Shown here piece by piece: positions 7,192-53,736 of a stretch of DNA of 64,000 nt; position 1 is the first letter of the stretch, and each line of letters opens with the position of its first letter. The translations under genes were made by a program, and so were the position numbers. Location of the stretch: positions 4,836 to 68,835 of the forward strand of contig CAZNHL010000009.1 of assembly GCA_964572965.1 (NCBI GenBank), in the 5' to 3' direction. Under the pieces are notes generated by a model. It ran no database searches. It was not told the origin of the DNA and was given only the letters and a program-made list of their open reading frames with translations. The DNA is from an uncultured Bifidobacteriaceae bacterium (GTDB taxonomy: Bacteria; Bacteroidota; Bacteroidia; Cytophagales; UBA9547).

Positions 7192-7388
7192 TTATGTAAT
7201 CAAAAAATGTTTAAAATTGCTTTGTCAGGATTCTAAACCGATCTTTTATTCTTTATTTACCTATTTTCCACGAGAAATCAAAATAAAGTCGGTTTTATAG
7301 ATGATAAGCCGCTGTTTTTAAATTAATCCAAATACTTTACAGGCATTATTTAAAATCATACCTTTTGAGAATAATTCAGTGTATTAAA

Positions 7389-35490: not shown

Positions 35491-35630
35491 AATTAAAAAA
35501 TGCGTCATAAATAAAGACATGAATTTAAGAAAAGTACTCGTGGCTATTGGTTAAAATAGATCTCAAAAGTTACACATGTCAGCCTAAACTATAATTTGCA
35601 TAATCATAGCAATCACACAAATCAAAAGAA

Positions 35631-37567: not shown

Positions 37568-37737
37568 ATGTTAAAATTTAACTGATTTACAGAGAACTTA
37601 ACTTGGTGTAGGTATGAGGATGTTTTTCCTTTTTCGTCCAACAAATTTGCGGAGCGAAAGGCCTATAAGCCTTAGAATAGCAATTATCCCTAACTCACGA
37701 TAAATTATTTCTCTTCAAAAACTCTGCAACAGGGGTC

Positions 37738-37758
37738 TTTCCAGAATTTTTCCAGATT
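37738..37758 (+). promoter_or_regulatory. Candidate OmpR-type tandem binding site
   Basis: TTTCCAGA repeated at 37738 and 37749 (11-bp period), just upstream of a TAATCTTG -7-like element at 37766 in the divergent TCS/efflux promoter. Confidence 0.5.
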
Positions 37759-37826
37759 CGATTCTTAATCTTGTATAAATCTATGGATTTTATAGGAAAT
37801 ATAAAAGCCCATGAAAATTGAAAGAG

Positions 37827-39212: not shown

Positions 39213-39226
39213 TGCCATATGCCTGG

Positions 39227-39277
39227 TGCTTAACGCGAAACGCAACGAATAATACTCTAAGCGTTCCGCATTAAGCA
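39227..39277. repeat. Intergenic 17-bp-arm inverted repeat (REP-like)
   Basis: TGCTTAACGCGAAACGC...GCGTTCCGCATTAAGCA; the two mismatches become G-U wobbles on the minus strand. Confidence 0.62.
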
Positions 39278-39298
39278 TTCAGCCTTAAGCAAAAAACT

Positions 39299-42200: not shown

Positions 42201-42466
42201 CAATCATCATGACCAGTTTAGCCATGATAGCAGGTATGATCCCGATGGCACTTGGCTTGGGTGAAGGCGGCGAACAGGTGGCGCCTCTTGGACAGGCGGT
42301 AATCGGCGGGCTCGTAGCTTCTACTGTTTCAACCTTATTGATTTTACCTGTTGTATTCAACCTCGCGCAGCAAAAATCTGGAATCAAATCACCTTCACTT
42401 GACCCGGAAGACCCTCAAAGTATCTTTTACAACAAACAAGAAATTTACTCTTATGAAGAAGCTTAA
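39299..42466 (+). CDS. RND efflux permease (AcrB/CzcA/NolG superfamily)
   Basis: 1055 aa; DIFP..LP, TM4 GLALAIGILVDES, TM11 TRIRPIIMTSLAMIAGMIPMALG, LGQAVIGGL. Confidence 0.95.
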   Translation: MNKLIKGALRKPITVVVAIIATLFFSVLTLFRIPVDIFPNLNLPTIYVIQPYGGMAPDQMDGFIATRYQDHFLYVSGIKDMDIKSIQGLTVMRLEFYPDADMAQAAGEIAINIARAKSYMPEGTVPPQVVRFDASSVPVGQLVFESSTRSLNEIQDFAASRVRPMFSKIAGVSSPPPFGGNQRSIVIKVDPNLMKSYKLSAEEVVKMIAANNQPSPAGNIRIGDKTLMTPVNSLINKPEEFLNIPVKLGNGPTVFVKDIATVEDAADVTVSYALVNGKRAVYIPVVKKADASTLEAVSNIKNALPKLQDAVPEDVKISFEFDQSAYVVHALKSLITEGVLGALLTGLVVFLFLRDWRSVIIVVVTIPVSVLSAVLMLHLFGQTINTMTLSGLALAIGILVDESTVTIENIHRHLEMHKTKAQAIWDACKEIAFPKFLILLSILAVFAPAFVMEGIPRSMFLPLSLSVGFAMISSFLLSQTFVPVLSNWLLKNEAHHEEEDGFFGRFKERYRHILKNLLGKKRRVVSIYLVSSLLVAGLAFTFLGTDILPKSNTKQFQLRLRAPDGTRIERTEEYTLKVLDLVKEQSGGKVDITSSYVGTVPSSYGTSSIYVFNRGPHEAVLQVALSPKVKGNMDEFREQLRKRIASALPDVQVSFEPIELVEKIMSQGSSTPIEISVAAKDILEANSHAKKIVNKLQQVSFLKDVQIAQPMDYPVMDVNINRERAGQLGITSTQVAKSLVAATSSSRFVEKNLWLDNKKGQAYQVQVQIPEHLMNDAGDISSISVKNGEAYPLLADVATVHEKVGPGEYDRSGSNRLVTITANMYQKDLGTAYKAVQKVLKDMGDPPRGVIVETKGQTKLLNDTLKSLQTGLLVAIVIIFLLFSANFQSFKLAIVILSTVPAVLAGSLSLLWLTGATLNLQSYMGLIMSVGVSIANSLLLVTSAEEARLENHNAKVSAIEAGLTRIRPIIMTSLAMIAGMIPMALGLGEGGEQVAPLGQAVIGGLVASTVSTLLILPVVFNLAQQKSGIKSPSLDPEDPQSIFYNKQEIYSYEEA

Positions 42467-43577
42467 TTATACACTTTTCCTGCTTGGCGGTTTGGCACTG
42501 CTGAGCGGATGTTCTTCGGAAGAAGAACTGGAAAATTCTATTTCAAAACATTCATCACATATTGCAACAACCGAAGTACTGGGCCTGCGCCCGGCCAAGG
42601 AAGTCGTAATTCCGGGAGAGTTGAAGCCTTGGGACAAAGTGGATATTTTCCCAAAAACAAAAGGCTTTATTAAGTCGGTAAAAGCTGACCGTGGCGCCAT
42701 TGTGCAGGAAGGGCAAGTATTGGCAGTACTCGAATCACCGGAGACAGTGGCGGAGCTGAACCAATCGAAGGCACAATTGCAAGCTTTTCAGGGAACATTA
42801 CAGGAGCAAAAAGCCAAGTTCCACGCAAGCAAATCGACTTACCTTCGTCTGCTCAAAACGAGCCAGACAAATGGTGCCGTATCGGCCAGTGAACTGGAAC
42901 ACGCCCATGCACGCTATATTGCCGACAGCGCTATTGTACTCAGCGGCATTGAACATGTCAATAGCGCGCGTGAGTTCTACAATGCCAAAAAGCAGATCGT
43001 CGACTACCTGACCATCACTGCTCCTTTTGACGGTGTTATCATGGAAAGAAATATCAGTCCGGGCACACTGGTAGGCCCGGAGCTAAATGGACAAAAGCCG
43101 ATGTATGTGTTGGTGAATAGCTCCAAACTACGTTTGACCGTGGCCGTGCCTGAAGTGTATTCTGGTTCTATTTCTAAAAAAGCTGTAGCAAGTTTTACTG
43201 TCAACTCATTGCCTGACCAGCATTTCAAAGCCAACTACGCACGTAGTGCCGAAAACATCGACAATCACGTACGTGTGATGCTCACTGAATTTGATGTGCC
43301 CAATCAAAATTATCAACTTAAGGCGGGTATGTATGCCGAAGTGAAAATTCCCGTGCAACGCAAAGGTCACACACTGTTTGTTCCGACCAAATCCATAGTT
43401 ACTTCCAGCGAAAAAGTTTTCGTGATTAAAGTAAAAGACCATCAGGCTGAATGGGTAAACGTCCGTCGTGGCAATGTAGTTGACACCCTCACAGAAGTAT
43501 TCGGCAATATCAAAGAAGGTGACAGACTTGTACTCAAAGCTTCTGAGGAAATCAGGGACGGGCAGAAGGTGAAGTAG
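42453..43577 (+). CDS. RND periplasmic adaptor (membrane fusion protein), lipoprotein
   Basis: Start ATG 42453 (MKKLNYTLF...LLSGC lipobox); G.I..V.AD.G..V.EGQVLA, TITAPFDGVI and L.AGMYAEV. Confidence 0.93.
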   Translation: MKKLNYTLFLLGGLALLSGCSSEEELENSISKHSSHIATTEVLGLRPAKEVVIPGELKPWDKVDIFPKTKGFIKSVKADRGAIVQEGQVLAVLESPETVAELNQSKAQLQAFQGTLQEQKAKFHASKSTYLRLLKTSQTNGAVSASELEHAHARYIADSAIVLSGIEHVNSAREFYNAKKQIVDYLTITAPFDGVIMERNISPGTLVGPELNGQKPMYVLVNSSKLRLTVAVPEVYSGSISKKAVASFTVNSLPDQHFKANYARSAENIDNHVRVMLTEFDVPNQNYQLKAGMYAEVKIPVQRKGHTLFVPTKSIVTSSEKVFVIKVKDHQAEWVNVRRGNVVDTLTEVFGNIKEGDRLVLKASEEIRDGQKVK

Positions 43578-43652: not shown

Positions 43653-43692
43653 CAAATATTGCGAGATTATTTACAAATCTTGCAATATTTAC
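43653..43692. repeat. Palindromic site A (copy 1 of a direct-repeat pair flanking Fic-1)
   Basis: C-AAATATTGCGAGATT-ATTTACA-AATCTTGCAATATTT-AC: 15-bp arms with one mismatch and a 7-bp spacer. The right arm overlaps the Fic-1 stop codon. Confidence 0.9.
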
Positions 43693-44987
43693 ACATTATA
43701 GCTTTGTAAAACATCATCAAAGTTTTTTGATCTGATGAAGTTCTGTTTGATTTTATTTACCTGAATAATCTCCAGGAAACCCAATTCAACCAGCAGCTTC
43801 AGATCAGCACGCGCCGTAAAATTTGAGATGCTGAAACGTTTCTCTATTTCTTTGCTATTTAAAACCCTGTCGGCATCGTCGTTTACAATTTTCAGAATCT
43901 GAGCCATTCTGTCATTTACATTCGGGATCTTCAAAAACTTAGCGGCTTGTACTACTTCCTTCTGCTTTCTACTCATATAGTCCTTAAGCGCCTCAAAAGC
44001 CATTTCCATGGTTTTGATGTGGTAGGTAATAAAGTAGCTCAAATCATTGTCATCAATTTCAGTATACAGATATGCCTTTTCATACTGATTCTTACTATTC
44101 TGAATGATTCGGGATATCGACAAATATTCCGTCAGCCAATATCCTTTTTTCAGCATATACCAATAAAACAGCGCACGTGCCGTACGTCCGTTTCCATCAG
44201 TGAAAGGGTGGATCCAACCAATCATAAAATGAATTATACAACCTTTTATAATCGGATGGATAAAGCTCTTCGAATCATTATTAAAGAAAATACACAGTTC
44301 TTCAATTAGCTTTTCCAGTTCATCTTTCGGAGGCGGAATATGGACAATATCTCCGTTACTATTGTTGGCTACAAAAATCTCGTCATTCTCCCTGAAGTTG
44401 CCTTCTTCATTGGCATTATCCAGCGTTTTATAAGCTATCAGTCTGTGGATTTCAAGTAAACCTTCCGGCGTCAGGTCATCATTTTTATGCTGAATAATAT
44501 GCTTCATGGTCACATAATTATTCATAATCATCTGCTCCGATTTCGTTCTCGGCTTTTGCTCTTTCTGTATCAGTTCCTTGGCCTTCTTTCGTGTGGTATT
44601 CGCCCCTTCCATCTGGCTGCTGCTGATGGCTTCTTCCATAATGGAGCTGATAATAAACTTTGTTTTATCGGTTTCCGCAATGCTGATATTGCTACCCAAA
44701 GTACCTCCGATATTCAGGTCAAACTGATGCAGGGCACGCTGCATAAAATCAGTAATCACATAAGTAAACTGATGCTTCCCAAACTGCAGATGGCTTGCAT
44801 TGAGCGTTCTGTGTAATTTAACAGCATTCCAAAACTGGCTGGCATCGTGTGGTTTCGATTTATATTTGATCTTATCCCAATACAAATATTCGTCCTGGAC
44901 ATTTTTCAATACACCTGTCACCTGCAAATCTACCATGAGATTAACAGTAGTGCTGTCTTGCTTTGCGGATGGGGCTTTTTCTAACAT
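43689..44987 (-). CDS. Fic family protein 1 (class II, C-terminal winged HTH)
   Basis: Catalytic HPFTDGNGRTAR, inhibitory SSQMEG, C-terminal wHTH (KEIEKRFSISNFTARADLKLLVELGFL). Confidence 0.95.
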   Translation of the reverse strand: MLEKAPSAKQDSTTVNLMVDLQVTGVLKNVQDEYLYWDKIKYKSKPHDASQFWNAVKLHRTLNASHLQFGKHQFTYVITDFMQRALHQFDLNIGGTLGSNISIAETDKTKFIISSIMEEAISSSQMEGANTTRKKAKELIQKEQKPRTKSEQMIMNNYVTMKHIIQHKNDDLTPEGLLEIHRLIAYKTLDNANEEGNFRENDEIFVANNSNGDIVHIPPPKDELEKLIEELCIFFNNDSKSFIHPIIKGCIIHFMIGWIHPFTDGNGRTARALFYWYMLKKGYWLTEYLSISRIIQNSKNQYEKAYLYTEIDDNDLSYFITYHIKTMEMAFEALKDYMSRKQKEVVQAAKFLKIPNVNDRMAQILKIVNDDADRVLNSKEIEKRFSISNFTARADLKLLVELGFLEIIQVNKIKQNFIRSKNFDDVLQSYNV

Positions 44988-45014
44988 CTGATAGATTCAA
45001 TAGATCAATCTAAA

Positions 45015-45054
45015 CAAATATTGCGAGATATTGATATAATCTCGCAATATTTAC
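45015..45054. repeat. Palindromic site B (copy 2)
   Basis: C-AAATATTGCGAGAT-ATTGATATA-ATCTCGCAATATTT-AC: 14-bp perfect arms, same 37-bp length and same flanking C/AC as site A, 28 bp upstream of the Fic-1 ATG. Confidence 0.9.
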
Positions 45055-45067
45055 TTGAATTAATAGA

Positions 45068-46183
45068 CTAAACCCTAACTAATCTCATTAATGGCTCAAA
45101 TGAATACAAAGCAGGTCTTCTTCCTGAAGCAGCTTCCTTTTGTTTCAGATAACCATTTTCTATAAGTTTTTTTACCACCGCAGCAGCTGTTGCAACCGGA
45201 ATTTTAGTGTTACTGATAAATCTGTTATTTCTGAAAACAGGGTTAGTAAATACAAAGTCCAAAACACCCACACTCCATTTTGATGAAAGCAATTCAGAAA
45301 ATTCAACTTTCATTTCTTCATACAAGCTCCTGATATTTTCAGCAATCTGCAGGTTTTGAACTGCCTGCTTTTCTACAGCAATAAGGAAAAAACGTATCCA
45401 TGCATTCCAATCATTGGTTCTTGAAACATCTCTCATAGCCTCAATGTATGCATCTTTATTTTCTTCAAAATAGCCGCTAATATAGAAGTGTGGTTGCGAT
45501 AATACACCCGATTTCCAAAGTAATAATGTGATAAGCATTCTTCCTATTCTTCCGTTGCCATCCTGAAAAGGGTGCAAAGCTTCAAATTCAAGATGCGCTA
45601 CTGCCGTGCGTATAATAGGTGGTTCACTACTACCTTCCATATAAGCAAAAAGTTTGTCAAGGCCATCGGGCAGCTGTTCAGCACTGATTGGTACAAACTG
45701 GATTTTTTTTGCAGAGCGGTCGGCAAGATAATTTTGCTCTTTTTTAAACTCCCCGGGCGACTTTGTTGCTCCACGTCCAAAATACAATAATTGCTGGTGC
45801 ATTTGTTTAATAAAACTCTGAGAGAAAGGATAACCATCATTCAAAGCCGACTGTGCACTTTTCAACGCTCTTTGATATAAAACCGTCTCTACTACATCAC
45901 TTCTTGTTCCTTGTGGTTCAGTCCCGTCATCGTCAGCTTCGTACTCCAGTATTTCATCCATAGTACTGATTGTACCTTCTATTCTGGAAGATAAAACCGC
46001 TTCCCTGTTTCTAAGTGGGGCTAGCAAAATTTCGCTGTTATGCAGGTTTTTGAGCATCTGGTCAAAACGTGCCAATGCATCAGTAGCACTCAGCAGTTCT
46101 TGTATAAAAAACTCATACCGAATACCTATAGGCGGAAATTTATCGTAATGATAATGTACAGCCTCATCCAAATTGAAGTTCAT
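45068..46183 (-). CDS. Fic family protein 2 (Fic/DOC N-terminal domain, class II, C-terminal wHTH)
   Basis: EAVLSSRIEG, HLEFEALHPFQDGNGRIGR, LYISGYFE-like segment and C-terminal HTH (VATAAAVVKKLIENGYL). Confidence 0.95.
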   Translation of the reverse strand: MNFNLDEAVHYHYDKFPPIGIRYEFFIQELLSATDALARFDQMLKNLHNSEILLAPLRNREAVLSSRIEGTISTMDEILEYEADDDGTEPQGTRSDVVETVLYQRALKSAQSALNDGYPFSQSFIKQMHQQLLYFGRGATKSPGEFKKEQNYLADRSAKKIQFVPISAEQLPDGLDKLFAYMEGSSEPPIIRTAVAHLEFEALHPFQDGNGRIGRMLITLLLWKSGVLSQPHFYISGYFEENKDAYIEAMRDVSRTNDWNAWIRFFLIAVEKQAVQNLQIAENIRSLYEEMKVEFSELLSSKWSVGVLDFVFTNPVFRNNRFISNTKIPVATAAAVVKKLIENGYLKQKEAASGRRPALYSFEPLMRLVRV

Positions 46184-46190
46184 ATACTAG

Positions 46191-46406
46191 TTTGTCTACA
46201 ATAAAATGCATTTTCTATCATACAAGATAGCTTATCGACGGAAATTATCAAATAACAATACACAAAAGGTTTTGTCTACAAAAAACAACACACAAAACGG
46301 TTTGCCTACAAAAAAAGGCAAAAAACAGATGACAAAATGATTTGTCTACATAAAACAGCACCCAGGAAGCTTTGCCTACAAAAAATGAACAAAAACGGAT
46401 GACAAA
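46191..46406. repeat. Phased TTTGYCTACA direct-repeat array with a 70-bp tandem duplication, upstream of Fic-2
   Basis: 10-mers at 46191, 46271, 46301, 46341 and 46371 (spacings 80, 30, 40, 30); 46261-46330 and 46331-46400 are diverged duplicates. Confidence 0.85.
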
Positions 46407-46454
46407 CAATATTTTGGTTGTTATCTCTTATATTTAAGTTTAAATGACAATCAC

Positions 46455-46730
46455 ATGACAACTCAAAAATTTGCCTGTCCGTGCTGTGGCTACAAGACAT
46501 TCACAGAAGAAGCCCACGGTACTTATGATATTTGTGAGGTTTGTTACTGGGAAGACGACCCTAACCAGTTCGCAGATCCCGACGATGAAGATGGTGCAAA
46601 CAGGGTTTCATTGAGACAAGCACAAAAGAACTTTGCCGAGTTTGGAGCCTGCGAAAAAGAAATGGTTGCCAACGTAAGAAAACCCCATGCCGATGAAATG
46701 AGGGATAAGGATTGGAAGCCATTGGTATAA
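46455..46730 (+). CDS. CPCC-family cysteine-rich protein
   Basis: FACPCCGYKT, YDICEVCYWEDD and GAN.VSL.QAQKNF form the Cys_rich_CPCC pattern. Confidence 0.85.
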   Translation: MTTQKFACPCCGYKTFTEEAHGTYDICEVCYWEDDPNQFADPDDEDGANRVSLRQAQKNFAEFGACEKEMVANVRKPHADEMRDKDWKPLV

Positions 46731-46761
46731 ATTCTGAGATTTACCTGTTTTTACAAGCCTT

Positions 46762-47436
46762 CTAAAAAATGGGCCTTATGAAGACAATCTGTATAATCAC
46801 CCATATCACAAGGCATATACCACCAAATATCATCATCTGTTTACCTAGCTCTCTGTCTCTCACAGAAAAAGCATTCACCAATTCTCCATTGGGCATTGTT
46901 TTCTTATGAGAAGACAGATGCCAGCCTATCATAAAGCCTAATATTCCTCCAAATAAAGAAGCAATATAGCCAGCGTATATCCAGGCTATTGGAAGTGTCT
47001 CTTGTTTTGACAAATCTGTTATTCTTTGCTTTCTGAGTAAGGCAACTAAGTCTCCATTTACTTCCTTGCCCCTTTCTTTCAATAGTTTTTGTGCAAGCAG
47101 AAAATCGAAGTGACCCCACTCATCGCGCTTCACAATTATTTCAAGTAACTCCTCATCAGTAAAATCAAATAGGTAATAGCTACGATCTATGTTTTCAAGT
47201 TGAGTCTTTGTGTTTTCCTGTAGCAACTGGTCAACCTTCAAAAAATCATCTTTCTGTAGTTTAACCCTGAATTCTCTCGACAATTCACTACTCCCAAAAG
47301 TATTGCCAAGCCCGATCGCTGTGGAATCTTCATCCAATAAATATTCTATATTATTTTCTTCGAGAAACGCCGTAAGCTCTGCCGCAGCCATGCGGTCATT
47401 GAATTTCTGAAAAGTAAGAAAGCGTTCTGTTGACAT
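46762..47436 (-). CDS. Membrane-anchored hypothetical protein with DUF2007-like N-terminal domain
   Basis: N-terminal F...AAAELT.FLE.NNI.Y and ..V.L...D...V.QLL resemble the putative signal-transducing (DUF2007) domain; two C-terminal TM helices. Confidence 0.65.
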   Translation of the reverse strand: MSTERFLTFQKFNDRMAAAELTAFLEENNIEYLLDEDSTAIGLGNTFGSSELSREFRVKLQKDDFLKVDQLLQENTKTQLENIDRSYYLFDFTDEELLEIIVKRDEWGHFDFLLAQKLLKERGKEVNGDLVALLRKQRITDLSKQETLPIAWIYAGYIASLFGGILGFMIGWHLSSHKKTMPNGELVNAFSVRDRELGKQMMIFGGICLVIWVIIQIVFIRPIF

Positions 47437-47465
47437 ATCGATTATACTTTAAAATCTCTTAACTA

Positions 47466-48923
47466 TTATTCACTTAACCAGCTCGATTTCTTAGCCAAAG
47501 TAACAACACCAATGTTGTACGCATAAATGGCCGCCGGAACAAAAGTGACATTTAAACCATCTATTGTTTTGTTACCCGGTTGATCTATTGTTGTCACCAC
47601 TGAAGCATTAAAGTTATTTGCTTTACAGAAATGAACCAAACTATTCAATTCATTCGGTTTATCGAAATAACGGTTAGTCCATTTTACTTCCACGCTCCAT
47701 TGCGGTTTGAAAAGCTTACTATCTACCAGTACAATATCAACTTCCCCTTCAGAGCGACCCATTTTCCAACGTGCATACTTCAGGTCCAGGTTTTCTCTGT
47801 GCATCCATTGTGAAAAAATTGCTGTTTCCACCATATTTCCGGTTTCCGGATCAGTTTCCTGAATCGGTGAAAATAAAGCTGTTCTCAGCGACGGATTAGT
47901 GAGATAGACTTTGAAACTGGTAATGCGTTTAAACTTTTTAGCATTGTCATCTATTTTGTGTATGACTTTGATTAAGAAAGCCGCTTCAAGATATTCCAGG
48001 TATTTTTTGATGATATCACCTTTAATACCACTATCCGTTGCCAGTTTTTCAAAAGAAAACTCATTACCGGTATTGTAAGCCAGGTAACTGAAAAAACTAT
48101 TGAGCTCCTGTACATCTTTAATTCCATACAGACTCGGCAAATCTCTCAGCAATACTTTATCCACAATATCGCTTTTTACATAACGTCCCATATCGCTTTG
48201 AATCTTTTCAGAGAAAACGACTTCCGGATAACCCCCGAAATTGAGATACTGAAAAAACTCTTTGTTAAATGCCTTATGATCGTGTGTAGTGAAAAACGGC
48301 ACTTCCTTGTTATTATAAACGATAGATTTTGACTGGACTAAGTGACTCAAACCTTTCAGGTGTATGTATTCATGAAAAGTAAGTGGAGGCAACATAAAAT
48401 CTGTGAACCGCCCTGCACCACTTTCAGAACTTTGCAAACGCAATGCCGCAGCTGCAGAACCGGAAACAATAAACTTAGTTTTAGGATACATATCTACCAA
48501 CACTTTAAGGTGACGCTCCCAGTCTTTCATGTATTGAATCTCATCAAAGAAAACAAAGCAGCCTTCCAGATTTTCCAGTTTTACAGCTTCCTTACCTAAC
48601 AAAAGAATCTCTTCCAAACCCAGGTGCATATAAATCGGATTATCGATTCCGATAAAGAAGATCTTCTGAGGTGGTACACCTTCAGTTATCAGCTCCTGAA
48701 TGGCATGAAACATCATCACAGTTTTGCCCACACGGCGCGGCCCCATCAACACGACCGCTCTTTTAACTTCTGTTTCTTTTACAAATGGATAAAACAAGTC
48801 AAAATAGAGACGTTTTGACATTTCGCGATAGACCTGCTGTACCTCGCCGGTTAGCCACCAGGGGTTTTCGTATTGCAAACGCTCTATCCGTTTGGCTGTT
48901 GGAATAACATGATTGAAATCCAT
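47466..48923 (-). CDS. AAA+ ATPase (AAA_14) with central wHTH and C-terminal DUF4143/PD-(D/E)XK-like domain
   Basis: Walker A GPRRVGKT, Walker B VFFDEIQ, VSGSA, YL.FGGYPE, G.MVET and EVDIV...SVEVKW. Confidence 0.9.
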   Translation of the reverse strand: MDFNHVIPTAKRIERLQYENPWWLTGEVQQVYREMSKRLYFDLFYPFVKETEVKRAVVLMGPRRVGKTVMMFHAIQELITEGVPPQKIFFIGIDNPIYMHLGLEEILLLGKEAVKLENLEGCFVFFDEIQYMKDWERHLKVLVDMYPKTKFIVSGSAAAALRLQSSESGAGRFTDFMLPPLTFHEYIHLKGLSHLVQSKSIVYNNKEVPFFTTHDHKAFNKEFFQYLNFGGYPEVVFSEKIQSDMGRYVKSDIVDKVLLRDLPSLYGIKDVQELNSFFSYLAYNTGNEFSFEKLATDSGIKGDIIKKYLEYLEAAFLIKVIHKIDDNAKKFKRITSFKVYLTNPSLRTALFSPIQETDPETGNMVETAIFSQWMHRENLDLKYARWKMGRSEGEVDIVLVDSKLFKPQWSVEVKWTNRYFDKPNELNSLVHFCKANNFNASVVTTIDQPGNKTIDGLNVTFVPAAIYAYNIGVVTLAKKSSWLSE

Positions 48924-48931
48924 AAATAAGT

Positions 48932-49034
48932 TTATTTATACATAAATGTAAAAATAAGCATGAAAAAAAAGTATTATTTTGACAAAAATGTAAAAATAAG
49001 GTTATTTTGGTGATATTTTCTGCTTATTTGTACA
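48932..49034. repeat. Operator-like half-sites TGTA(A/C/T)AAATAA upstream of the AAA ATPase
   Basis: Inverted copy 48932-48943, direct copies 48946 and 48988 (AAATGTAAAAATAAG twice, 42 bp apart), inverted copy 49024-49034. Confidence 0.65.
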
Positions 49035-49124
49035 ATAAAGTATATCACCAAGGCTTAATTTTCCAACTGTACTTTCAGGTAATTACTAGGCTTTTGATAA
49101 AACAATATCAACAGCTTGTTTTTA

Positions 49125-49182
49125 TAAAAAATGTCTAAAAAATGTCTAAAAAATGTCTAAAAAATCAGTGCTTAGACATTTT
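49125..49182. repeat. (TAAAAAATGTC)x3 tandem repeat plus an inverted copy inside the 3' end of the neighbouring gene
   Basis: Exact 11-mers at 49125, 49136 and 49147; TTAGACATTTT at 49172-49182 encodes KMSK on the minus strand. Confidence 0.85.
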
Positions 49183-50823
49183 CCATATCTTACCTTCGGG
49201 GTATATAAGACCCTTCATTCTAAGTTTTTGGAGATTGTTTTTTATTTTATTGCTTTTTTGAGCCGGATCTAATACATCTGGAAGTTTATCTAAAAGTACT
49301 TTTTCAAAATCTTCTCTTTTACCTTCCTTAAACTTTTTCAGATAATCCAGAATAATCTTCTGACAATACCCATCATCAATACCTCGCTGTTTTATATAAT
49401 CGGCCTTGTCACCGGTTACTCTGGCTACCGTAGCTGAAATATGAAAGTTTGGTTTTCTTCCTTCTATTAAGCTCTTTGCTTTTAGTTGATTAATTTCATC
49501 ATTATTTAAGCTTTTGGACTTGGAAACTTTATCCAGAGCGATAATATCTATCAAACTAAGGTCTGGTATAGCTGCTACTTTTCTGGCATAGTTAATATCC
49601 ACTACTTTACCTGTCACGGTTAACTTTACTGTATTGGGCGAAAATTCGTAATCGGGTAAAGGAAAAAATTTCTTGCGCTGAATATTAAACATCCTTTTAA
49701 TACCACTGCCAATAGCATCAATCATATTCAGATTAATCATTGCTTCTACTAAAAACGGATTGCGGTATGTAGGTTCTGGTGCATCGGAAATAACTACTTC
49801 CTCCACACTTGCCGGAATAAACTTTCCTGAGTTGATAAATACCAGTTTACCATCTTCATGTTCAACTACATTTATTTTACCCCCAAGTGTATAATCCTGA
49901 TGCGCAATACAGTTGTTTAAAGCTTCTCTTACTATATATGGATCATATTGATCTACTTCCTCAGGAAATAAACTACCGTCTGTAATATAGCGATACTTCA
50001 GGTTTCTGATTTTTTTATATACTTCTTCTGTATTTAATAATAACGGACAGGTAAAATGCTGGTAGTCTTTCTCTAGGTTATCGCTATCTCGAAGAATCCA
50101 TGAAACTTTTGCTGTAGAGGGGTTAATAAAGTGTTCTGATTCTGACTTGCCCAACAACAAAATAGCAGTGCGGGTAATTTTCCCTTTAATACACACTTTT
50201 GATTTATTCAGAAAAGTGATATCGTCCCATTGGTCAATTTCACTCACCAAATGGCTGTTTTTCTTTTTATATGACTCACGGGCTTTATGAATGGCTTCTG
50301 AAGACAAATCGTCAAATGTTGCATCGTCAATAATTGCGGCGCTCCAATCTTCTCCTTTTGTTTGTTCACGAATACGCTCTACTTCTTCAAGATTCAGGGC
50401 ATTCAACTCTTCACCGTCACGGCCATAATAATGTCCCTTCCAGGAAATGGGAATGCCTTTTGGTGCCGCAGGGATTTCAAATAATACAACTCTGCCGTTT
50501 GGTGTATTTGTCTCGTAAATTTCTATAAAAGTAATTCTGCCAGTGGTATGGTTTGCCAGCTCTGCCTTAAGACTGTCTAAATCATTATGATGAACTCTAA
50601 ATTGAGAGCCTACGATACTTTTGTCGCTATCCTTCACTCCAAAAACCAGCCAAGCCGAGCGTTTGCCTTTTAAATTAGCTTCATTACAAAGAGCAGAAAA
50701 ATACTTCCCTAGTTTATTAGAATCAAACTGATTATTCGCTTCTTTAAACTCCACCACTTCGTTTTCATACCCTTGCGAACAAAGTGATTGCAAAATGTCT
50801 TGTATTTCTGCCGGATTTCTCAT
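49165..50823 (-). CDS. Schlafen/AlbA_2 domain + HATPase_c_4 + wHTH protein (RecG-like C-terminal architecture)
   Basis: ENEVVEFKEA, YFSALCNEAN and WLVFGVKD (AlbA_2); VREALNNCIAHQDY, RNPFL and IDAIGSGIKRM (HATPase_c_4); C-terminal wHTH. Confidence 0.9.
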   Translation of the reverse strand: MRNPAEIQDILQSLCSQGYENEVVEFKEANNQFDSNKLGKYFSALCNEANLKGKRSAWLVFGVKDSDKSIVGSQFRVHHNDLDSLKAELANHTTGRITFIEIYETNTPNGRVVLFEIPAAPKGIPISWKGHYYGRDGEELNALNLEEVERIREQTKGEDWSAAIIDDATFDDLSSEAIHKARESYKKKNSHLVSEIDQWDDITFLNKSKVCIKGKITRTAILLLGKSESEHFINPSTAKVSWILRDSDNLEKDYQHFTCPLLLNTEEVYKKIRNLKYRYITDGSLFPEEVDQYDPYIVREALNNCIAHQDYTLGGKINVVEHEDGKLVFINSGKFIPASVEEVVISDAPEPTYRNPFLVEAMINLNMIDAIGSGIKRMFNIQRKKFFPLPDYEFSPNTVKLTVTGKVVDINYARKVAAIPDLSLIDIIALDKVSKSKSLNNDEINQLKAKSLIEGRKPNFHISATVARVTGDKADYIKQRGIDDGYCQKIILDYLKKFKEGKREDFEKVLLDKLPDVLDPAQKSNKIKNNLQKLRMKGLIYPEGKIWKMSKH

Positions 50824-50921
50824 GAGCCCATTGCTACTGTTTTTATTCTTACACCGTAGTTAAAGTTAAGCTTATTTATGGTTGCTGTATCTATCGTGTC
50901 AGGGTGTCAGGCATGATTTTA

Positions 50922-51251
50922 TTAATAGTTGTTACTCTGATCTCTATATTTTTCAACAAACTCATTCGCTTCTCCTAGGTTTTCTGGATATTTAGCATAG
51001 GACGAGTATACTTTACAGCCTCTAATTATTTCCATTTTTTCATAAACATGATCATAGTCGAAACCATTAGCTACTAAAAACCTAACTACTTCCCATTTCT
51101 GAGTTTCTGTTTTTTTAGGTGGTCGAAACCTGTGAGAAAGAAATACCATTGGCTTTCCACAATCAGGACAATTTGCAACTCGTCTATTATTGTAATCCGT
51201 TCCCTGACTAAACGATTTTCTACAGTCTAGGCAAACTACTTTATTACCCAT
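50922..51251 (-). CDS. Zinc-ribbon hypothetical protein (109 aa)
   Basis: VCLDCRKSF...CPDCGKPM..L.HRFRPPKK...KW. Confidence 0.72.
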   Translation of the reverse strand: MGNKVVCLDCRKSFSQGTDYNNRRVANCPDCGKPMVFLSHRFRPPKKTETQKWEVVRFLVANGFDYDHVYEKMEIIRGCKVYSSYAKYPENLGEANEFVEKYRDQSNNY

Positions 51252-51254
51252 GTT

Positions 51255-51467
51255 TTACTTCAACTTATTAGGATTCAATAACTCCCTTATATCCACATTT
51301 AAGACCTCTGCAATCTGAAGTAAAGTCTCCAATGATGGTTGAGAGTCATTGGTACACCAACGAGAAATTGTAGCAGTATTCTTTCCTAGCTTAGTTGCCA
51401 GCCACTTGTTTGTTCTTTCCTGTTCGGCCAGTACAACCTTTATTCTATTTATCGATGTCTTTGACAT
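51255..51467 (-). CDS. XRE-family HTH transcriptional regulator
   Basis: NRIKVVLAEQ.RTNKWLA.KLGK..ATISRWCTN.SQPSLETL..IA..L.V is the typical Bacteroidota Cro/XRE pattern. Start ATG 51467. Confidence 0.9.
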   Translation of the reverse strand: MSKTSINRIKVVLAEQERTNKWLATKLGKNTATISRWCTNDSQPSLETLLQIAEVLNVDIRELLNPNKLK

Positions 51468-51472
51468 AAAAA

Positions 51473-51703
51473 TCACTTTTCATTCTCAAAAAACCTACCT
51501 GTTGAAATTCCCAACCCTTCTGCCAAAAGCATAATAGTATTCAAGCTGGTATTGATTACCCCTGTTTCTATCCTCGCTATCTGACTAAGTGATATTCCCG
51601 TCCTGTGTGCTAACTCTTCCTGAGTAACACCTAGGGATTTACGGCATACTGCAAACTGTTTGCCGAATGCCTTTATCTTCTCTTTATTGACTGTTTTTCT
51701 CAC
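51473..51703 (-). CDS. XRE-family HTH transcriptional regulator
   Basis: FG......RK.LG.TQEELA.RTGIS.SQIARIE.G..N.SL.TI..LA..L; GTG start. Confidence 0.85.
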   Translation of the reverse strand: MRKTVNKEKIKAFGKQFAVCRKSLGVTQEELAHRTGISLSQIARIETGVINTSLNTIMLLAEGLGISTGRFFENEK

Positions 51704-51734
51704 AGGTCAAAGGTTAATAAAAAGTATCTATTCC

Positions 51735-51872
51735 TTAAACTTCAAACCTAAAAAGCAAATCAGGTTCTATGCCCATTCCTTTGCTTAGTGCATAAATAGT
51801 TGAAATTGTTGGGCTTCGTTCTCCTCTTTCCAGTCTGCTGATTTGTTTGGCATCTAATACTGTTACCTTCAA
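51735..51872 (-). pseudogene. 5'-truncated XRE HTH fragment, not in the ORF track
   Basis: Translates to LKVTVLDAKQISRLERGERSPTISTIYALSKGMGIEPDLLFRFEV*, the C-terminal half of an XRE domain. An in-frame TAG lies 9 codons upstream of this fragment. Confidence 0.7.
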
Positions 51873-51976
51873 ATACTTTGATAACCTGAAAGTAATCTAT
51901 TTCTCAAATACTACCAACTGGTAGTGGTCAAAGTGTTTCAGCTATAATATCTTTCCTCCATAGAAATTATTATACT

Positions 51977-52365
51977 ATGGAAAAACACAAACCAGCTATC
52001 AGCATTATGCTGGTGGAGCGTGACGAACTGGCCTTGCAGGTATTAGTATGGCTTTTTGAGAAAAGCGGCTATCTCGGCGAGCTGCTGTTGTTTACAGATC
52101 CGGACAAAGCTGCGGAATACCTCAACACACATAAGCTGCCTGACCTGATTATCGCTGACTTTTCCTGAACAAAATGGAGGAATTTAGCTTTCTGCTGCGG
52201 GCACAGGAACTCGCTGCTTCGTGGAACAAGCCAATGGCTATTGTTATTCTGGGAGATTTCGCTGGTGATATACGGGAAGTATCTACTGTAATTGCTGATA
52301 TCCATTTTGTGCTAAAACCGCTTACGCTTGATGTGGCTGAGAGGTGGATTGGGTTGCTACAGTAA
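51977..52365 (+). pseudogene. Stand-alone receiver (CheY-like) domain split by a 1-nt frameshift
   Basis: ORF 51977-52168 ends ...PDLIIADFS*. Adding one T to the T4 run at 52160-52163 gives DLIIADFFLNKMEEF... in frame with ORF 52174-52365, which ends FVLKPLT (conserved Lys-Pro). Confidence 0.75.
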
Positions 52366-52390
52366 GCGGCTTGCAAATCCTATGATCTGG

Positions 52391-52443
52391 CTTCGAGATT
52401 ATAAATCCCGAAGAGCAATTTTGCAGCAGCAGCTGCAAAATTG
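52391..52443. terminator. Two adjacent hairpins between the convergent receiver pseudogene and Fic-3
   Basis: CTTCGAGATT-ATA-AATCCCGAAG and the perfect CAATTTTGCAGC-AGCA-GCTGCAAAATTG. Confidence 0.62.
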
Positions 52444-52503
52444 AACTAGACTAGAGTTGTGTTACAAACATGTATCTCGTCAGTCCTCAAACTAGTTTGG
52501 TTT

Positions 52504-53577
52504 CTATCTTTTAGACAACAATTCAAACAAGCGTGTATTGATATAATAGTTTCCGGTTCCTAGTTTGGCTTTTTGCAAAAGGCCGTCTTCTGCCAGTTTG
52601 TTCAAATAGGAAGCTGCTGTTATTCTGGAAACTCCCAGATCATTCATCAGGAATTCTATTTTTGTATAAGGGTGTTTGAATAAATTATTCAACAAATCCT
52701 GGCTGTAAAACTTATAGTTTTCCCGTAACTCATACTTATAGGTTTGCATCAGTTTTTTTATCTGGCCGATAAGCTCAATCGTTTCTTTAGAAGTTTCTTC
52801 TATGCCTTTGATCATAAAGAGTAGCCATTCTTCCCAATTTTTCTTATCACGCACTTCTTGAAGCAGTCTGTAATAATCTGCTTTGTGTTTGATAATATAG
52901 CTACTCAAATAGAGGATCGGTAAGTTTTGCAGGTTTTCGAGGATAAGATAGAGAATATTCACAATCCGGCCAGTTCTGCCGTTTCCGTCATAAAATGGAT
53001 GAATACTTTCAAACTGATAATGGATAACAGCCATTTTAACGAGTGCGTCATATTCACTGAATTCCTTGTTATTGATAAAGGACTCCAGGTTGGCCATCAG
53101 ACTATCGATCTCATCATAACTTTGAGGAGGTGTATAAACAACTTCACCGGTTTGTGCATTTTTCAGGTTTGTGCCGGGCAGTTTTCTGAAGCCTGCTTTG
53201 TTTCGTTCCAATTCTTCCTGAATAATGAGAATGGTTTTATTGGTAATCAGCCCGCTTGCCGATGTCAGTTCAAAACCCTTCTTTAAGGCTGATATATAAT
53301 TCTGCACTTCTTTAGCATTTAATGAATTGAGTGCTTCAAAATTCAACTCTGACTTATACAGATCGTCATGTGTCGTAATGATATTTTCAATAGCTGAACT
53401 GTCTTTTGCTTCCTGTAAACCAAGGGTATTGATAAGAATATGCTGGTTCGGAATTGTAGAGGCTACTCCCTTCAATTCTGCCAAAGCAGCATGCGCAGCT
53501 GGCAGGCTCTTTAAAACCTTGATAGTCTCGAGATCATGCTTTACAGGTAACGGTTCTAATTTCCAGTTTGTCTCCAT
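52504..53577 (-). CDS. Fic family protein 3 (class II, C-terminal wHTH)
   Basis: QEAKDSSAIENI, HYQFESIHPFYDGNGRTGR and wHTH (LGVSRITAASYLNKLAEDGLL). True start ATG 53577 (METNW); the ORF-track extension reads through the repeat array. Confidence 0.95.
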   Translation of the reverse strand: METNWKLEPLPVKHDLETIKVLKSLPAAHAALAELKGVASTIPNQHILINTLGLQEAKDSSAIENIITTHDDLYKSELNFEALNSLNAKEVQNYISALKKGFELTSASGLITNKTILIIQEELERNKAGFRKLPGTNLKNAQTGEVVYTPPQSYDEIDSLMANLESFINNKEFSEYDALVKMAVIHYQFESIHPFYDGNGRTGRIVNILYLILENLQNLPILYLSSYIIKHKADYYRLLQEVRDKKNWEEWLLFMIKGIEETSKETIELIGQIKKLMQTYKYELRENYKFYSQDLLNNLFKHPYTKIEFLMNDLGVSRITAASYLNKLAEDGLLQKAKLGTGNYYINTRLFELLSKR

Positions 53578-53582
53578 AGTAC

Positions 53583-53736
53583 TATGTAAAGATTTTGCTG
53601 TTTTCTTTACATAGCAAAACCTATATGTAAAGAAAATCAATTTTTCTTTACATATGCAAAGTGTTATGTAAAGATTTTGCCGTTTTCTTTACATAGCAAA
53701 CCTCATATGTAAAGAAAAGTTAAAAATCTTTACAGA
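53583..53736. repeat. Four palindromic units TATGTAAAGA-N11-TCTTTACATA at an exact 41-bp period
   Basis: Left arms at 53583, 53624, 53665 and 53706; units 1+2 and 3+4 form an 82-bp duplication. The last right arm is TCTTTACAGA. Confidence 0.95.

What the first reader, a model, noticed from the sequence alone, without database searches (positions are those of the whole stretch)
43689..53736. Candidate defence island: three class II Fic proteins, a Schlafen-ATPase, an AAA-nuclease, CPCC and XRE genes in 10 kb
Seen: three divergent Fic genes, each with an intact HPFxDGNGRxxR motif and an internal (S/T)xxxE(G/N) inhibitory helix (SSQMEG, SSRIEG, SSAIEN), interleaved with AlbA_2-HATPase and AAA_14-DUF4143 genes. 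Most are on the minus strand and AT-rich, and two pseudogenes lie among them. Established: Fic enzymes modify proteins by AMPylation and related reactions, Schlafen domains are RNases, and defence genes cluster. Inference: a hotspot accumulating stand-alone, self-inhibited toxic effectors that could trigger abortive infection or dormancy.
Basis: partly seen in the sequence, partly recalled or inferred. Interest (0 to 1): 0.7.

Follow-up and report, generated by a model that had tools for sequence, protein, structure and literature searches.

The report
Cluster of stand-alone anti-phage-type genes
A 10-kb stretch of an uncultured Cytophaga-like bacterium holds five unrelated single-gene modules from families already linked to phage defence, each acquired separately and carrying its own control DNA; it is an ordinary defence-gene cluster, not a new system.

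Summary
Between an RND efflux operon and housekeeping genes lie:
- three divergent class II Fic genes, with intact HPFxDGNGRxxR and inhibitory-Glu motifs
- an AAA_14-DUF4143 ATPase-nuclease (PADLOC PDC-S01)
- a Schlafen/AlbA_2-GHKL gene
- a CPCC gene, a zinc-ribbon gene, two XRE genes and two gene remnants

All five large genes belong to catalogued defence or defence-candidate families: SoFic, PDC-S01 and prokaryotic Schlafen.

Each has orthologues at 70-87% identity scattered across Bacteroidota classes, whereas flanking core genes reach only 69-73% in the closest family. Neighbours are not conserved. Orthologues of the Schlafen and ATPase genes lie near type I restriction, CRISPR or Fic genes in 19 of 76 loci, against 0 of 240 control loci. 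Each Fic gene's upstream repeats recur in front of its orthologues, matching the self-promoter binding published for SoFic and CccR.

So this is a collection of independent, horizontally mobile, self-regulated single-gene modules, here without any restriction system. Not tested: whether the site is a strain-variable hotspot (no close relative is available) and whether any gene blocks phage. The AT-richness is not distinctive.

A side result is more unusual. The Schlafen family carries conserved 11-bp TTAGAC repeats at its 3' end which, in other genomes, flank the start region of hsdR.

The parts
43654..43690 (.). Second copy of the FicA palindrome (AAATATTGCGAGAT-N9-ATCTTGCAATATTT), overlapping the FicA stop codon
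   Evidence: It is absent downstream of FicA orthologues L245 and L246, so it is specific to this window. Its role is unknown.
43689..44987 (-). FicA: class II Fic with an N-terminal extension and a DeoR/HTH_11-like C-terminal winged helix; distant SoFic-type
   Evidence: PADLOC SoFic 153 bits. Orthologues of 432-434 aa at 70-83% identity occur in Paludibacter, Chitinophagaceae, Sphingobacteriaceae and Adhaeribacter.
45016..45052 (.). FicA operator: 14-nt-arm palindrome 28 nt upstream of the FicA ATG
   Evidence: The same AAATTGCGAGATT-N7-ATCTCGCAATTT palindrome lies about 30-35 nt upstream of the ATG in orthologues L245 (Adhaeribacter) and L246 (Chitinophagaceae).
45068..46183 (-). FicB: SoFic-type class II Fic
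   Evidence: PADLOC SoFic 365 bits over the full length. Orthologues at 70-82% identity occur in Elizabethkingia, Salegentibacter, Pedobacter, Reichenbachiella, Myroides and Sphingobacterium. In Pedobacter L244 the gene sits between argF and argB.
46191..46406 (.). FicB upstream array: five TTTGYCTACA repeats at spacings of 80, 30, 40 and 30 nt
   Evidence: TTTGTTTACA / TGTAGACAA-like repeats also lie upstream of orthologues L243 and L244.
46455..46730 (+). Cys_rich_CPCC small protein (PF14206)
   Evidence: E 3e-33. Weak PHROG match phrog_6332. Function unknown.
46762..47436 (-). 224-aa protein with two C-terminal membrane helices and no family match
   Evidence: It lies 29 nt after the AAA14 gene but is absent beside all 52 AAA14 orthologues, so it is not a conserved partner.
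47466..49035 (-). AAA_14-DUF4143 ATPase-nuclease (PADLOC PDC-S01; ORF 47466-48923) with its conserved upstream region of about 60-110 nt
   Evidence: Walker A G61-T68, Walker B D127/E128, and E394, D396, E412 and K414 are conserved in at least 98% of 44 sequences. DNA similarity to orthologues runs 60-110 nt upstream of the ATG and stops near the stop codon. The tree mixes classes.
49125..49165 (-). 3.7 tandem 11-bp units (TTAGACATTTT on the gene strand) abutting the Schlafen stop codon
   Evidence: Three or more TTAGA(C/T) words in the 95-nt test window in 15 of 21 orthologous loci, at least one in 19 of 21 (0.01-0.12 expected by chance).
49165..50823 (-). Prokaryotic Schlafen: SLFN/AlbA_2 nuclease domain plus GHKL-type HATPase_c_4 and a C-terminal region
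   Evidence: Motif E20-x4-E25-x-K27, invariant in 10 orthologues. Orthologues at 56-84% identity occur across Bacteroidota and in a Melioribacteraceae MAG. The gene sits between hsdS and hsdR in L165, L166, L168, L170 and L171, and beside cas3/cas4 in L167.
50922..51251 (-). 109-aa zinc-ribbon protein with no family match
   Evidence: Not found next to Schlafen orthologues (0 of 24).
51255..51703 (-). Two overlapping XRE-family HTH genes (73 and 76 aa)
   Evidence: Generic HTH_3 domains. Not conserved next to Schlafen orthologues.
51735..51884 (-). Remnant of an XRE gene (C-terminal part only)
51977..52365 (+). Frameshifted stand-alone response-regulator receiver gene
   Evidence: PF00072 E 2e-4 for the first half; a 'KP' motif in the second frame.
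52504..53577 (-). FicC: close SoFic homologue (Fic_N, Fic, SoFic-like_C winged helix)
   Evidence: 390 bits. End-to-end match to solved SoFic and EcSofic structures, E about 1e-78. Orthologues at 76-82% identity occur in Sporocytophaga, Bacteroidales, Sphingobacteriales, Mucilaginibacter, Maribellus and Carboxylicivirga.
53585..53734 (.). FicC operator array: four TGTAAAGA-N11-TCTTTACA palindromes at a 41-bp period, abutting the ATG
   Evidence: 4 matches against 0.07 expected. Two copies, perfect or degenerate, lie at the same position in orthologues L240, L241 and L242 from three orders.

Best explanation
The block is an accretion of five independent, horizontally acquired single-gene modules from defence-associated families: three SoFic-type Fic AMP-transferases, one PDC-S01 ATPase-nuclease and one prokaryotic Schlafen RNase-GHKL protein. 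Small regulatory or unknown genes and two gene remnants lie among them.

**Shown here**
- Each module is self-contained and moves on its own between Bacteroidota classes.
- Four modules carry their own control DNA. Each Fic gene has a private operator array directly upstream. The ATPase has a conserved 60-110-nt leader.
- The Schlafen gene instead carries phased TTAGAC repeats at its 3' end.
- In other genomes the same families often sit inside or beside type I restriction operons or CRISPR loci. Here they are gathered together with no restriction system in the window.

**Inferred mechanism**
- Each Fic dimer binds its own operator through its C-terminal winged helix and holds its expression low. 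The three operator words differ, so the paralogues should not cross-talk.
- On an infection or stress cue, the Fic domain AMPylates a translation or division factor and arrests growth. EF-Tu is the target shown for SoFic.
- The Schlafen domain would cleave tRNA.
- The ATPase-nuclease would cut nucleic acid in an ATP-dependent way.

Protection against phage in this host is inferred from family membership and gene neighbourhood. It has not been shown.
For: **Family assignment**
- Pfam, PADLOC and NCBIfam hits.
- FicC aligns end to end with solved SoFic and EcSofic structures, E about 1e-78.
- Catalytic motifs are intact: the Fic motif and inhibitory Glu; Walker A, Walker B and PD-(D/E)xK, invariant in 44 sequences; Schlafen Ex4ExK, invariant in 10.

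**Horizontal transfer**
- Identity to orthologues: Schlafen 56-84%, ATPase 77-87%, FicC 76-82%, FicB 70-82%, FicA 70-83%. These orthologues come from Flavobacteriia, Sphingobacteriia, Bacteroidia, Chitinophagia and Cytophagia.
- The flanking RND pump and glycogen synthase reach only 69% and 73%, and the glycogen synthase's best matches are Cytophagaceae/Cytophagales genomes.
- The ATPase tree needs at least 14 changes of class label (6 is the minimum possible), and inter-class path lengths are as short as about 0.04.

**Independence of the modules**
- None of the window's neighbour genes recurs beside the Schlafen orthologues (XRE and zinc ribbon 0 of 24) or the ATPase orthologues (o224 0 of 52).
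- A Fic gene is nearby in only 1 of 24 and 3 of 52 loci.

**Defence neighbourhood**
- 19 of 76 orthologue loci hold hsdM/S/R, cas3/cas4, Fic or each other within 8 kb. The figure is 0 of 160 for control loci (Fisher p = 8e-11) and 0 of a further 80 metagenome controls.
- hsdM-hsdS-Schlafen-hsdR operons are confirmed by Pfam.
- A FicC orthologue sits between hsdM and hsdR in Mucilaginibacter.
- ATPase orthologues abut hsdR- or hsdM-like genes.

**Operators travel with the genes** and are private within the window.

**Literature**
- SoFic is a single-gene defence system (bioRxiv 10.1101/2022.05.11.491447).
- SoFic binds the first 100 bp upstream of its own gene and AMPylates EF-Tu.
- CccR represses its own promoter (PMC9755527).
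- Prokaryotic Schlafens defend against phage by cutting tRNA (PMC13056530).
- PDC-S01 is a common but untested candidate (PMC12988326).
Against: - No phage-protection data exist for any gene here. None exist for PDC-S01 or for GHKL-type Schlafens in general: of the seven Schlafens tested in PMC13056530, the two that protected had other architectures.
- None of the three Fic proteins reaches NCBIfam's SoFic equivalog cut-off of 550 bits (372.6, 152.4 and 61.7).
- Most Fic orthologues inspected sit alone among housekeeping genes (L240, L241, L243-L246). They are strongly conserved and extremely abundant (at least 6,500-8,000 homologues per search), which also fits a regulatory or addiction role.
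- SoFic and CccR have published non-defence roles: translation control, self-regulation and interbacterial toxin.
- The locus has no integrase, tRNA gene, flanking repeats or distinct composition.
- Variability among strains could not be examined.
- Control loci come partly from other taxa than the test loci, so the enrichment test is first-order only.
Confidence: 0.7

Rival explanations
1. These are regulators or addiction genes and not immunity genes. The winged-helix Fic proteins act as transcription and translation regulators or as selfish toxin-like genes that persist through self-regulation. The Schlafen-GHKL and AAA_14-DUF4143 proteins are DNA-binding regulators. The cluster simply reflects how abundant these families are in Bacteroidota.
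For: - SoFic binds its own promoter and reversibly modifies EF-Tu. CccR is a transcription factor and an interbacterial toxin.
- Fic orthologues lie singly among housekeeping genes, one of them inside an arginine operon.
- Each search returned thousands of homologues.
- PDC-S01 and the GHKL-type Schlafens are unvalidated.
Against: - There is strong co-localisation with restriction, CRISPR and Fic genes, against none in 240 control loci.
- The nuclease and ATPase catalytic residues are invariant.
- One SoFic homologue and several Schlafens protect against phage experimentally.
- Rapid inter-class transfer and frequent decay are typical of defence genes. Five of 24 Schlafen orthologues are split and two are truncated.
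Confidence: 0.2
2. The block is the cargo remnant of a decayed mobile element (integrative element or prophage). Its integration and transfer genes have been lost, so the genes arrived together and not one by one.
For: - Two XRE repressor-like genes, a CPCC gene with a weak phage-family match, two gene remnants, and a KilA-N gene 8 kb to the left.
- The adjacent efflux operon has a higher G+C content than its surroundings.
Against: - The window holds no integrase, transposase, tRNA gene, flanking direct repeats or phage structural genes.
- No close relative of FicC, the Schlafen or the ATPase was found in viral contigs, and only distant ones on plasmids.
- None of the genes co-occurs with the others in 76 orthologous loci beyond 1-3 cases. 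The best matches of the different genes come from different taxa.
Confidence: 0.08

Closest known systems
SoFic (Shewanella oneidensis SO_4266/mloA; E. coli EcSofic), a single-gene anti-phage system and class II Fic AMP-transferase
   Same: - FicC matches the solved SoFic and EcSofic structures end to end (E about 1e-78).
[quoted passage not shown]
- Repeats lie within 100-220 nt upstream of each start codon, as for the promoter DNA that SoFic binds.
   Different: - All three score below NCBIfam's equivalog cut-off.
- FicA has an extra N-terminal region of about 100 aa and a different (HTH_11/DeoR-like) winged helix.
- No AS1-like small gene lies downstream (PMC12249575 describes one for EcSofic).
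- Three mutually divergent copies with three different operator words sit side by side.
- Target and phage protection are untested.
CccR of Yersinia pseudotuberculosis (Fic plus DNA-binding domain; self-repressor and toxin; PMC9755527)
   Same: [quoted passage not shown]
   Different: CccR is secreted by a type VI system and AMPylates FtsZ. Nothing in this window suggests secretion.
PADLOC phage-defence candidate PDC-S01 (AAA_14 ATPase fused to a DUF4143 PD-(D/E)xK domain)
   Same: Same two domains; best model 190 bits over the full length; ATPase and nuclease motifs are intact and invariant.
   Different: PDC-S01 itself is only a guilt-by-association candidate with no experimental validation (PMC12988326). 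New here: the conserved upstream leader and the inter-class transfer.
Prokaryotic Schlafen nucleases (pSlfn) of the HisKinase / HisKinase-HTH architecture, and the SLFN-GHKL module of SLFN-pAgo
   Same: - An N-terminal Schlafen/AlbA_2 domain with the Ex4(E/D)xK motif, followed by a GHKL-type ATPase-like domain. PMC13056530 reports this as the commonest architecture.
- A weak PADLOC pAgo hit covers the SLFN-GHKL part.
- Orthologues lie in defence neighbourhoods.
   Different: - The validated Schlafens carry Ig-like or DUF262 sensors, not GHKL.
- No Argonaute is attached here.
- I found no description of the conserved 3' TTAGAC repeats or of the fixed position before hsdR in the passages I read of the papers consulted.
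Defence islands and passenger genes inside type I restriction operons (for example the anticodon nuclease PrrC in EcoprrI; recalled from memory)
   Same: Orthologues of the Schlafen, FicC and ATPase genes are passengers between hsdM/hsdS and hsdR. Several defence-type genes are clustered within 10 kb.
   Different: Here the passengers are gathered without any restriction genes or remnants of them. The locus has not been shown to vary between strains.

Membership tests
SoFic-type class II Fic (defence system 'SoFic') | Fic active-site motif HxFx(D/E)GNGRxxR | tested here: met
   HPFTDGNGRTAR, HPFQDGNGRIGR and HPFYDGNGRTGR.
SoFic-type class II Fic (defence system 'SoFic') | Inhibitory motif (S/T)xxxE(G/N) on a helix N-terminal to the Fic core (class II) | tested here: met
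   SSQMEG at residue 123, SSRIEG at 65 and SSAIEN at 81 of the TTG-start ORF. In FicC the motif aligns with the EcSofic inhibitory motif.
SoFic-type class II Fic (defence system 'SoFic') | C-terminal winged-helix domain (SoFic-like_C) | tested here: met
   - FicC: PF21248, E 1e-19.
- FicB: no Pfam domain, but the PADLOC SoFic model covers residues 8-369 of 371.
- FicA: only weak HTH_11/DeoR hits, below the curated cut-off. Clear for FicC, indirect for FicB and weak for FicA.
SoFic-type class II Fic (defence system 'SoFic') | Score above NCBIfam's equivalog threshold for SoFic (NF046030, 550 bits) | tested here: not met
   372.6, 152.4 and 61.7 bits. These are family relatives, not equivalogs.
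SoFic-type class II Fic (defence system 'SoFic') | Binds its own promoter region | tested here: inconclusive
   Operator-like repeats are conserved in front of orthologues. This is consistent with binding, but binding itself is not testable here.
SoFic-type class II Fic (defence system 'SoFic') | Protects against phage; AMPylates a host target | not testable with these tools
   Needs experiments.
PADLOC PDC-S01 | AAA_14 ATPase domain followed by DUF4143 | tested here: met
   PF13173 E 1e-29 and PF13635 E 6e-23. PDLC04787: 190 bits over residues 36-458.
PADLOC PDC-S01 | Intact Walker A and B motifs and PD-(D/E)xK residues | tested here: met
   GPRRVGKT at 61-68, D127/E128, and E394, D396, E412 and K414, conserved in at least 98% of 44 sequences.
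PADLOC PDC-S01 | Anti-phage activity | not testable with these tools
   Also unvalidated in the literature.
Prokaryotic Schlafen nucleases (pSlfn) | Schlafen/AlbA_2 domain with the Ex4(E/D)xK active-site motif | tested here: met
   PF04326 E 5e-15. E20-NEVV-E25-F-K27, invariant in alignment A1. Motif definition taken from PMC13056530.
Prokaryotic Schlafen nucleases (pSlfn) | Fusion to a sensor or regulatory domain (HisKinase/GHKL, with or without HTH) | tested here: met
   HATPase_c_4 E 5e-10 at residues 321-402. The C-terminal HTH could not be confirmed, because the structure model had mean pLDDT 52.
Prokaryotic Schlafen nucleases (pSlfn) | Located near known defence genes | tested here: met
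   10 of 24 orthologue loci hold hsdM/S/R, cas3/cas4, Fic or AAA14 within 8 kb.
Prokaryotic Schlafen nucleases (pSlfn) | Phage-triggered tRNA cleavage | not testable with these tools
   Needs experiments.
Defence island / hotspot | Several defence genes clustered within about 10 kb | tested here: met
   Four PADLOC-recognised genes plus a pSlfn in 10 kb.
Defence island / hotspot | Content varies between closely related strains while the flanks are conserved | not testable with these tools
   - No relative closer than 69-73% identity was found, and synteny of the flanks is lost.
- The exact proteins occur in one sequencing sample only.
Defence island / hotspot | Genes show signs of horizontal acquisition | tested here: met
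   Identity to distant classes exceeds that of core genes to the nearest family. The tree mixes classes.

The most novel reading that the evidence does not exclude
The Schlafen-GHKL gene family carries a conserved cis-module. Three to five 11-bp-phased TTAGAC repeats begin at or inside its last codons. In other genomes a second TTAGAC cluster follows 50-70 nt further on, just before the hsdR start codon.

The boldest reading is that the protein's C-terminal DNA-binding region docks on these repeats. That docking could control hsdR transcription, acting as a 'controller protein' for type I restriction. Alternatively the repeats could be a parking site that keeps the RNase inactive until docking is disturbed. 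The window's copy, which keeps cluster 1 only and has no hsdR, would then be an orphan released from that circuit.
Probability: 0.2. Interest if true: 0.6.

Novelty: new member of a known kind. Interest (0 to 1): 0.3.

Why it matters
As a defence cluster it is routine. SoFic and PDC-S01 are among the commonest defence annotations in prokaryotes, and Schlafen defence has been described, so standard pipelines would flag this locus.

Its value is as a clean example of two points:
- These families behave as self-contained, mobile units of one gene plus its own control DNA, and can detach from restriction operons and gather elsewhere.
- Three paralogous self-regulated Fic toxins can coexist by using three different operator words.

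The untested families are very abundant, so any experimental result on the PDC-S01 ATPase-nuclease or the GHKL-type Schlafen would inform thousands of genomes.

The conserved TTAGAC repeats at the Schlafen 3' end, flanking the hsdR start region in other genomes, are the one feature I did not see described in the passages I read of the papers consulted. They give a concrete handle for asking how these Schlafens are regulated.

Tried and rejected
**1. Strain-variability test: no close relative found**
- Scans with the left-flank HlyD gene found nothing in genome contigs or metagenomes.
- The RND pump gave 80 loci at 69% identity or less. Glycogen synthase gave 80 loci at 73% or less. The OYE reductase gave 80 metagenome loci at 69% or less. 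None showed synteny across the island.
- Exact-protein look-ups returned only short contigs from one sample, SRR16798008.
I could therefore not count paralogues genome-wide, run relatives or lay reads.

**2. Multi-gene operon hypotheses: rejected**
- xre2-xre1-zinc ribbon-Schlafen: 0 of 24 orthologue loci keep these neighbours.
- AAA14-o224: 0 of 52.

**3. Classical genomic island or prophage: rejected**
- No tRNA gene, integrase or bounding repeats.
- G+C is not distinctive.

**4. Phage or plasmid carriage**
- No close relatives of FicC, the Schlafen or the ATPase in viral contigs.
- Only relatives at 49% identity or less on plasmids.

**5. Structure of the Schlafen protein**
- The AlphaFold model from 10 orthologues had mean pLDDT 52. 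I ran no fold search, and the C-terminal HTH remains unconfirmed.

**6. RNA and signal scans**
- Rfam gave only chance microRNA-like hits on the palindromes.
- Sigma-70 promoter and terminator scans did not exceed shuffles. Bacteroidota promoters are not covered by that scan.

**7. AS1-like antitoxin downstream of the Fic genes**
- No conserved small ORF was found.

**8. Wasted search**
- One literature search was wasted on an ambiguous term.

Full report
**What is there**

The window is mostly housekeeping DNA: alpha-2-macroglobulin, PBP1C, SecA, glycyl-tRNA synthetase, AccD and glycogen synthase. The best matches of its glycogen synthase are Cytophagaceae/Cytophagales genomes, at 73% protein identity or less.

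A two-component/RND efflux operon (35631-43577) lies on the left. On the right are unknown genes followed by methylglyoxal synthase. Between them the ORF list and family scans give the following:
- FicA, 43689-44987
- FicB, 45068-46183
- a CPCC gene, 46455-46730, + strand
- a 224-aa membrane protein, 46762-47436
- an AAA_14-DUF4143 gene, 47466-48923
- a Schlafen/AlbA_2-HATPase_c_4 gene, 49165-50823
- a zinc-ribbon ORF, 50922-51251
- two overlapping XRE genes, 51255-51703
- FicC, 52504-53577

The two 'pseudogenes' are a frameshifted receiver domain (51977-52365, + strand) and an XRE C-terminal remnant (about 51735-51884). Both are plausible but weakly supported.

Three corrections apply:
- FicC starts at the ATG at 53577, not at the TTG inside the repeat array.
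- Island G+C (0.375) barely differs from the rest of the window (0.388).
- The three Fic proteins share only 25-35% identity with each other.

**Which families**

PADLOC's SoFic model hits FicC (390 bits), FicB (365) and FicA (153). The ATPase hits PDC-S01 at 190 bits. FicC aligns end to end with the solved SoFic and EcSofic structures, E about 1e-78. None of the three reaches NCBIfam's equivalog cut-off.

In the ATPase-nuclease, the Walker A and B motifs and an E-x-D...E-x-K nuclease motif are invariant across 44 orthologues.

The Schlafen protein has E20-x4-E25-x-K27, invariant in 10 orthologues. This is the Ex4(E/D)xK active-site motif reported for prokaryotic Schlafens. Its fusion to a histidine-kinase-like (GHKL) domain is the commonest architecture in that survey (PMC13056530).

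What the literature says about these families:
- SoFic is a published single-gene defence system.
- Wild-type EcSofic is toxic and needs its C-terminal domain (PMC12249575).
- SoFic AMPylates EF-Tu and binds the first 100 bp upstream of its own gene.
- The related CccR represses its own promoter.
- PDC-S01 is the fourth commonest 'defence' annotation but is untested.
- Of seven Schlafens tested, the two that protected were not of the GHKL type.

**Are the genes a unit?**

No. I fetched 24 loci with Schlafen orthologues and 52 with ATPase orthologues.
- The XRE pair and the zinc ribbon are never beside the Schlafen gene.
- The 224-aa gene is never beside the ATPase.
- A Fic gene is nearby in only 1 and 3 loci respectively.
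- DNA similarity to the Schlafen orthologues begins exactly at its ATG and runs about 40 nt past the stop.
- Similarity to the ATPase orthologues begins 60-110 nt upstream of the ATG and ends near the stop codon.

Each gene is therefore its own module.

**Horizontal transfer**

Orthologues reach these identities:
- Schlafen: 56-84%
- ATPase: 77-87%
- FicC: 76-82%
- FicB: 70-82%
- FicA: 70-83%

They come from Flavobacteriia, Sphingobacteriia, Bacteroidia, Chitinophagia and Cytophagia. The flanking RND pump and glycogen synthase reach only 69% and 73% in the best-matching genomes.

A maximum-likelihood tree of the ATPase needs at least 14 changes of class label, where 6 is the minimum possible. 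Isolates of Pedobacter and Flavobacterium sit about 0.04 substitutions per site apart.

One FicB orthologue sits between argF and argB in a Pedobacter arginine operon. Five of 24 Schlafen orthologues are split by frameshifts and two are truncated, the sort of decay expected of costly genes.

**Defence neighbourhood**

Pfam confirms hsdM-hsdS-Schlafen-hsdR operons in several genomes, and a cas3/cas4 neighbour in another. A FicC orthologue sits between hsdM and hsdR in Mucilaginibacter. ATPase orthologues abut hsdR- or hsdM-like genes.

I counted loci that hold hsdM/S/R, cas3/cas4, Fic, ATPase or Schlafen probes within the flanks:
- 19 of 76 orthologue loci
- 0 of 160 control loci around the RND and glycogen-synthase genes (Fisher p = 8e-11)
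- 0 of 80 metagenome control loci

The controls are partly from other taxa, so this is a first-order test. The window itself has no restriction or Cas genes, and no remnants of them.

**Control DNA**

Each Fic gene's upstream repeats recur in front of its orthologues:
- FicC: TGTAAAGA-N11-TCTTTACA, perfect or degenerate, twice just before the ATG in Sporocytophaga, Maribellus and Mucilaginibacter. There are four copies here.
- FicA: AAATTGCGAGATT-N7-ATCTCGCAATTT about 30-35 nt upstream in Adhaeribacter and a Chitinophagaceae strain. The second copy at the FicA stop codon here is not conserved, which argues against a 'bracketed cassette'.
- FicB: TTTGTYTACA-like repeats.

The three words are different, and each occurs only at its own gene in the window. 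This matches the published self-promoter binding of SoFic and CccR, so it is expected biology. Earlier notes of this scan reached the same reading in other genomes.

**Side result**

In 15 of 21 Schlafen orthologue loci the ORF ends in, or abuts, three to five TTAGA(C/T) words, mostly 10-12 nt apart (typically 11). Between 0.01 and 0.12 are expected by chance.

Usually an AT-rich spacer of 50-70 nt follows, then a second cluster, then the hsdR start codon. Three 'solitary' loci still keep a truncated hsdR 5' end. The variable half of the repeat changes together with the protein clade, and the last codons are themselves repeat units.

The window copy has cluster 1 only (49125-49165). The ATPase module follows it directly. 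I did not see this described in the passages I read of the papers consulted. Its function is unknown.

**Limits**

I could therefore not test whether the locus is a strain-variable hotspot, nor count paralogues in the genome. The Schlafen structure model was too poor to use. No phage protection, toxicity or DNA binding has been shown for these genes.

**Verdict**

The 'defence island' reading is partly supported, as a cluster of independent, mobile, self-regulated single-gene modules from known defence or candidate families. It is a new member of a known kind and of modest interest. The Schlafen 3' repeats are a more unusual lead.

Noticed in passing
window 49125-49165; loci L164-L185 just after the Schlafen ORF: Phased TTAGA(C/T) repeats, mostly 10-12 nt apart (typically 11), begin at or inside the last codons of Schlafen-GHKL genes: three or more words in the 95-nt test window in 15 of 21 orthologous loci, at least one in 19 of 21. 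In most loci a second cluster follows 50-70 nt on, directly before the hsdR start. Solitary copies L169, L179 and L183 keep a truncated hsdR 5' end. The repeat variant co-varies with the protein clade. The window copy has only the first cluster.
   Followed up: partly
window 43654-43690: A second copy of the FicA operator palindrome overlaps the FicA stop codon. Orthologues L245 and L246 carry the palindrome only upstream of the gene. The downstream copy is therefore local to this genome: possibly a relic of a lost neighbouring copy, or a looping site.
   Followed up: partly
L244:6001-7116 (Pedobacter nototheniae): A FicB orthologue (73% identity) is inserted between argF and argB of an arginine biosynthesis operon, 5 nt before argB. 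A 23S_rRNA_IVP/bAvd-like gene is also inserted in the same operon.
   Followed up: no
window 34645-35520 (-): A KilA-N domain protein with a strong match to a phage transcriptional-regulator family (phrog_2657, E 6e-59) sits alone between a beta-lactamase-family gene and the two-component/RND operon.
   Followed up: no
window 35631-43577: The HK-RR-OEP-RND-HlyD efflux block has a higher G+C content (0.44-0.48) than the rest of the window (0.39). It is conserved as a five-gene block in about 65-78 of 80 Cytophagales and related loci, at 69% identity or less for the pump.
   Followed up: partly
L193 and L194: Identical AAA_14-DUF4143 proteins occur in a Flavobacterium MAG and an Algoriphagus MAG, apparently from the same study to judge by their isolate and contig names. 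This is either very recent transfer or a binning error.
   Followed up: no
window 48932-49000: The leader of the AAA_14-DUF4143 gene holds two 27-nt repeats (TTATTTATACATAAATGTAAAAATAAG and a variant) with a TACAT-AA-ATGTA dyad. The leader is conserved at about 75% DNA identity in orthologues from several classes.
   Followed up: partly
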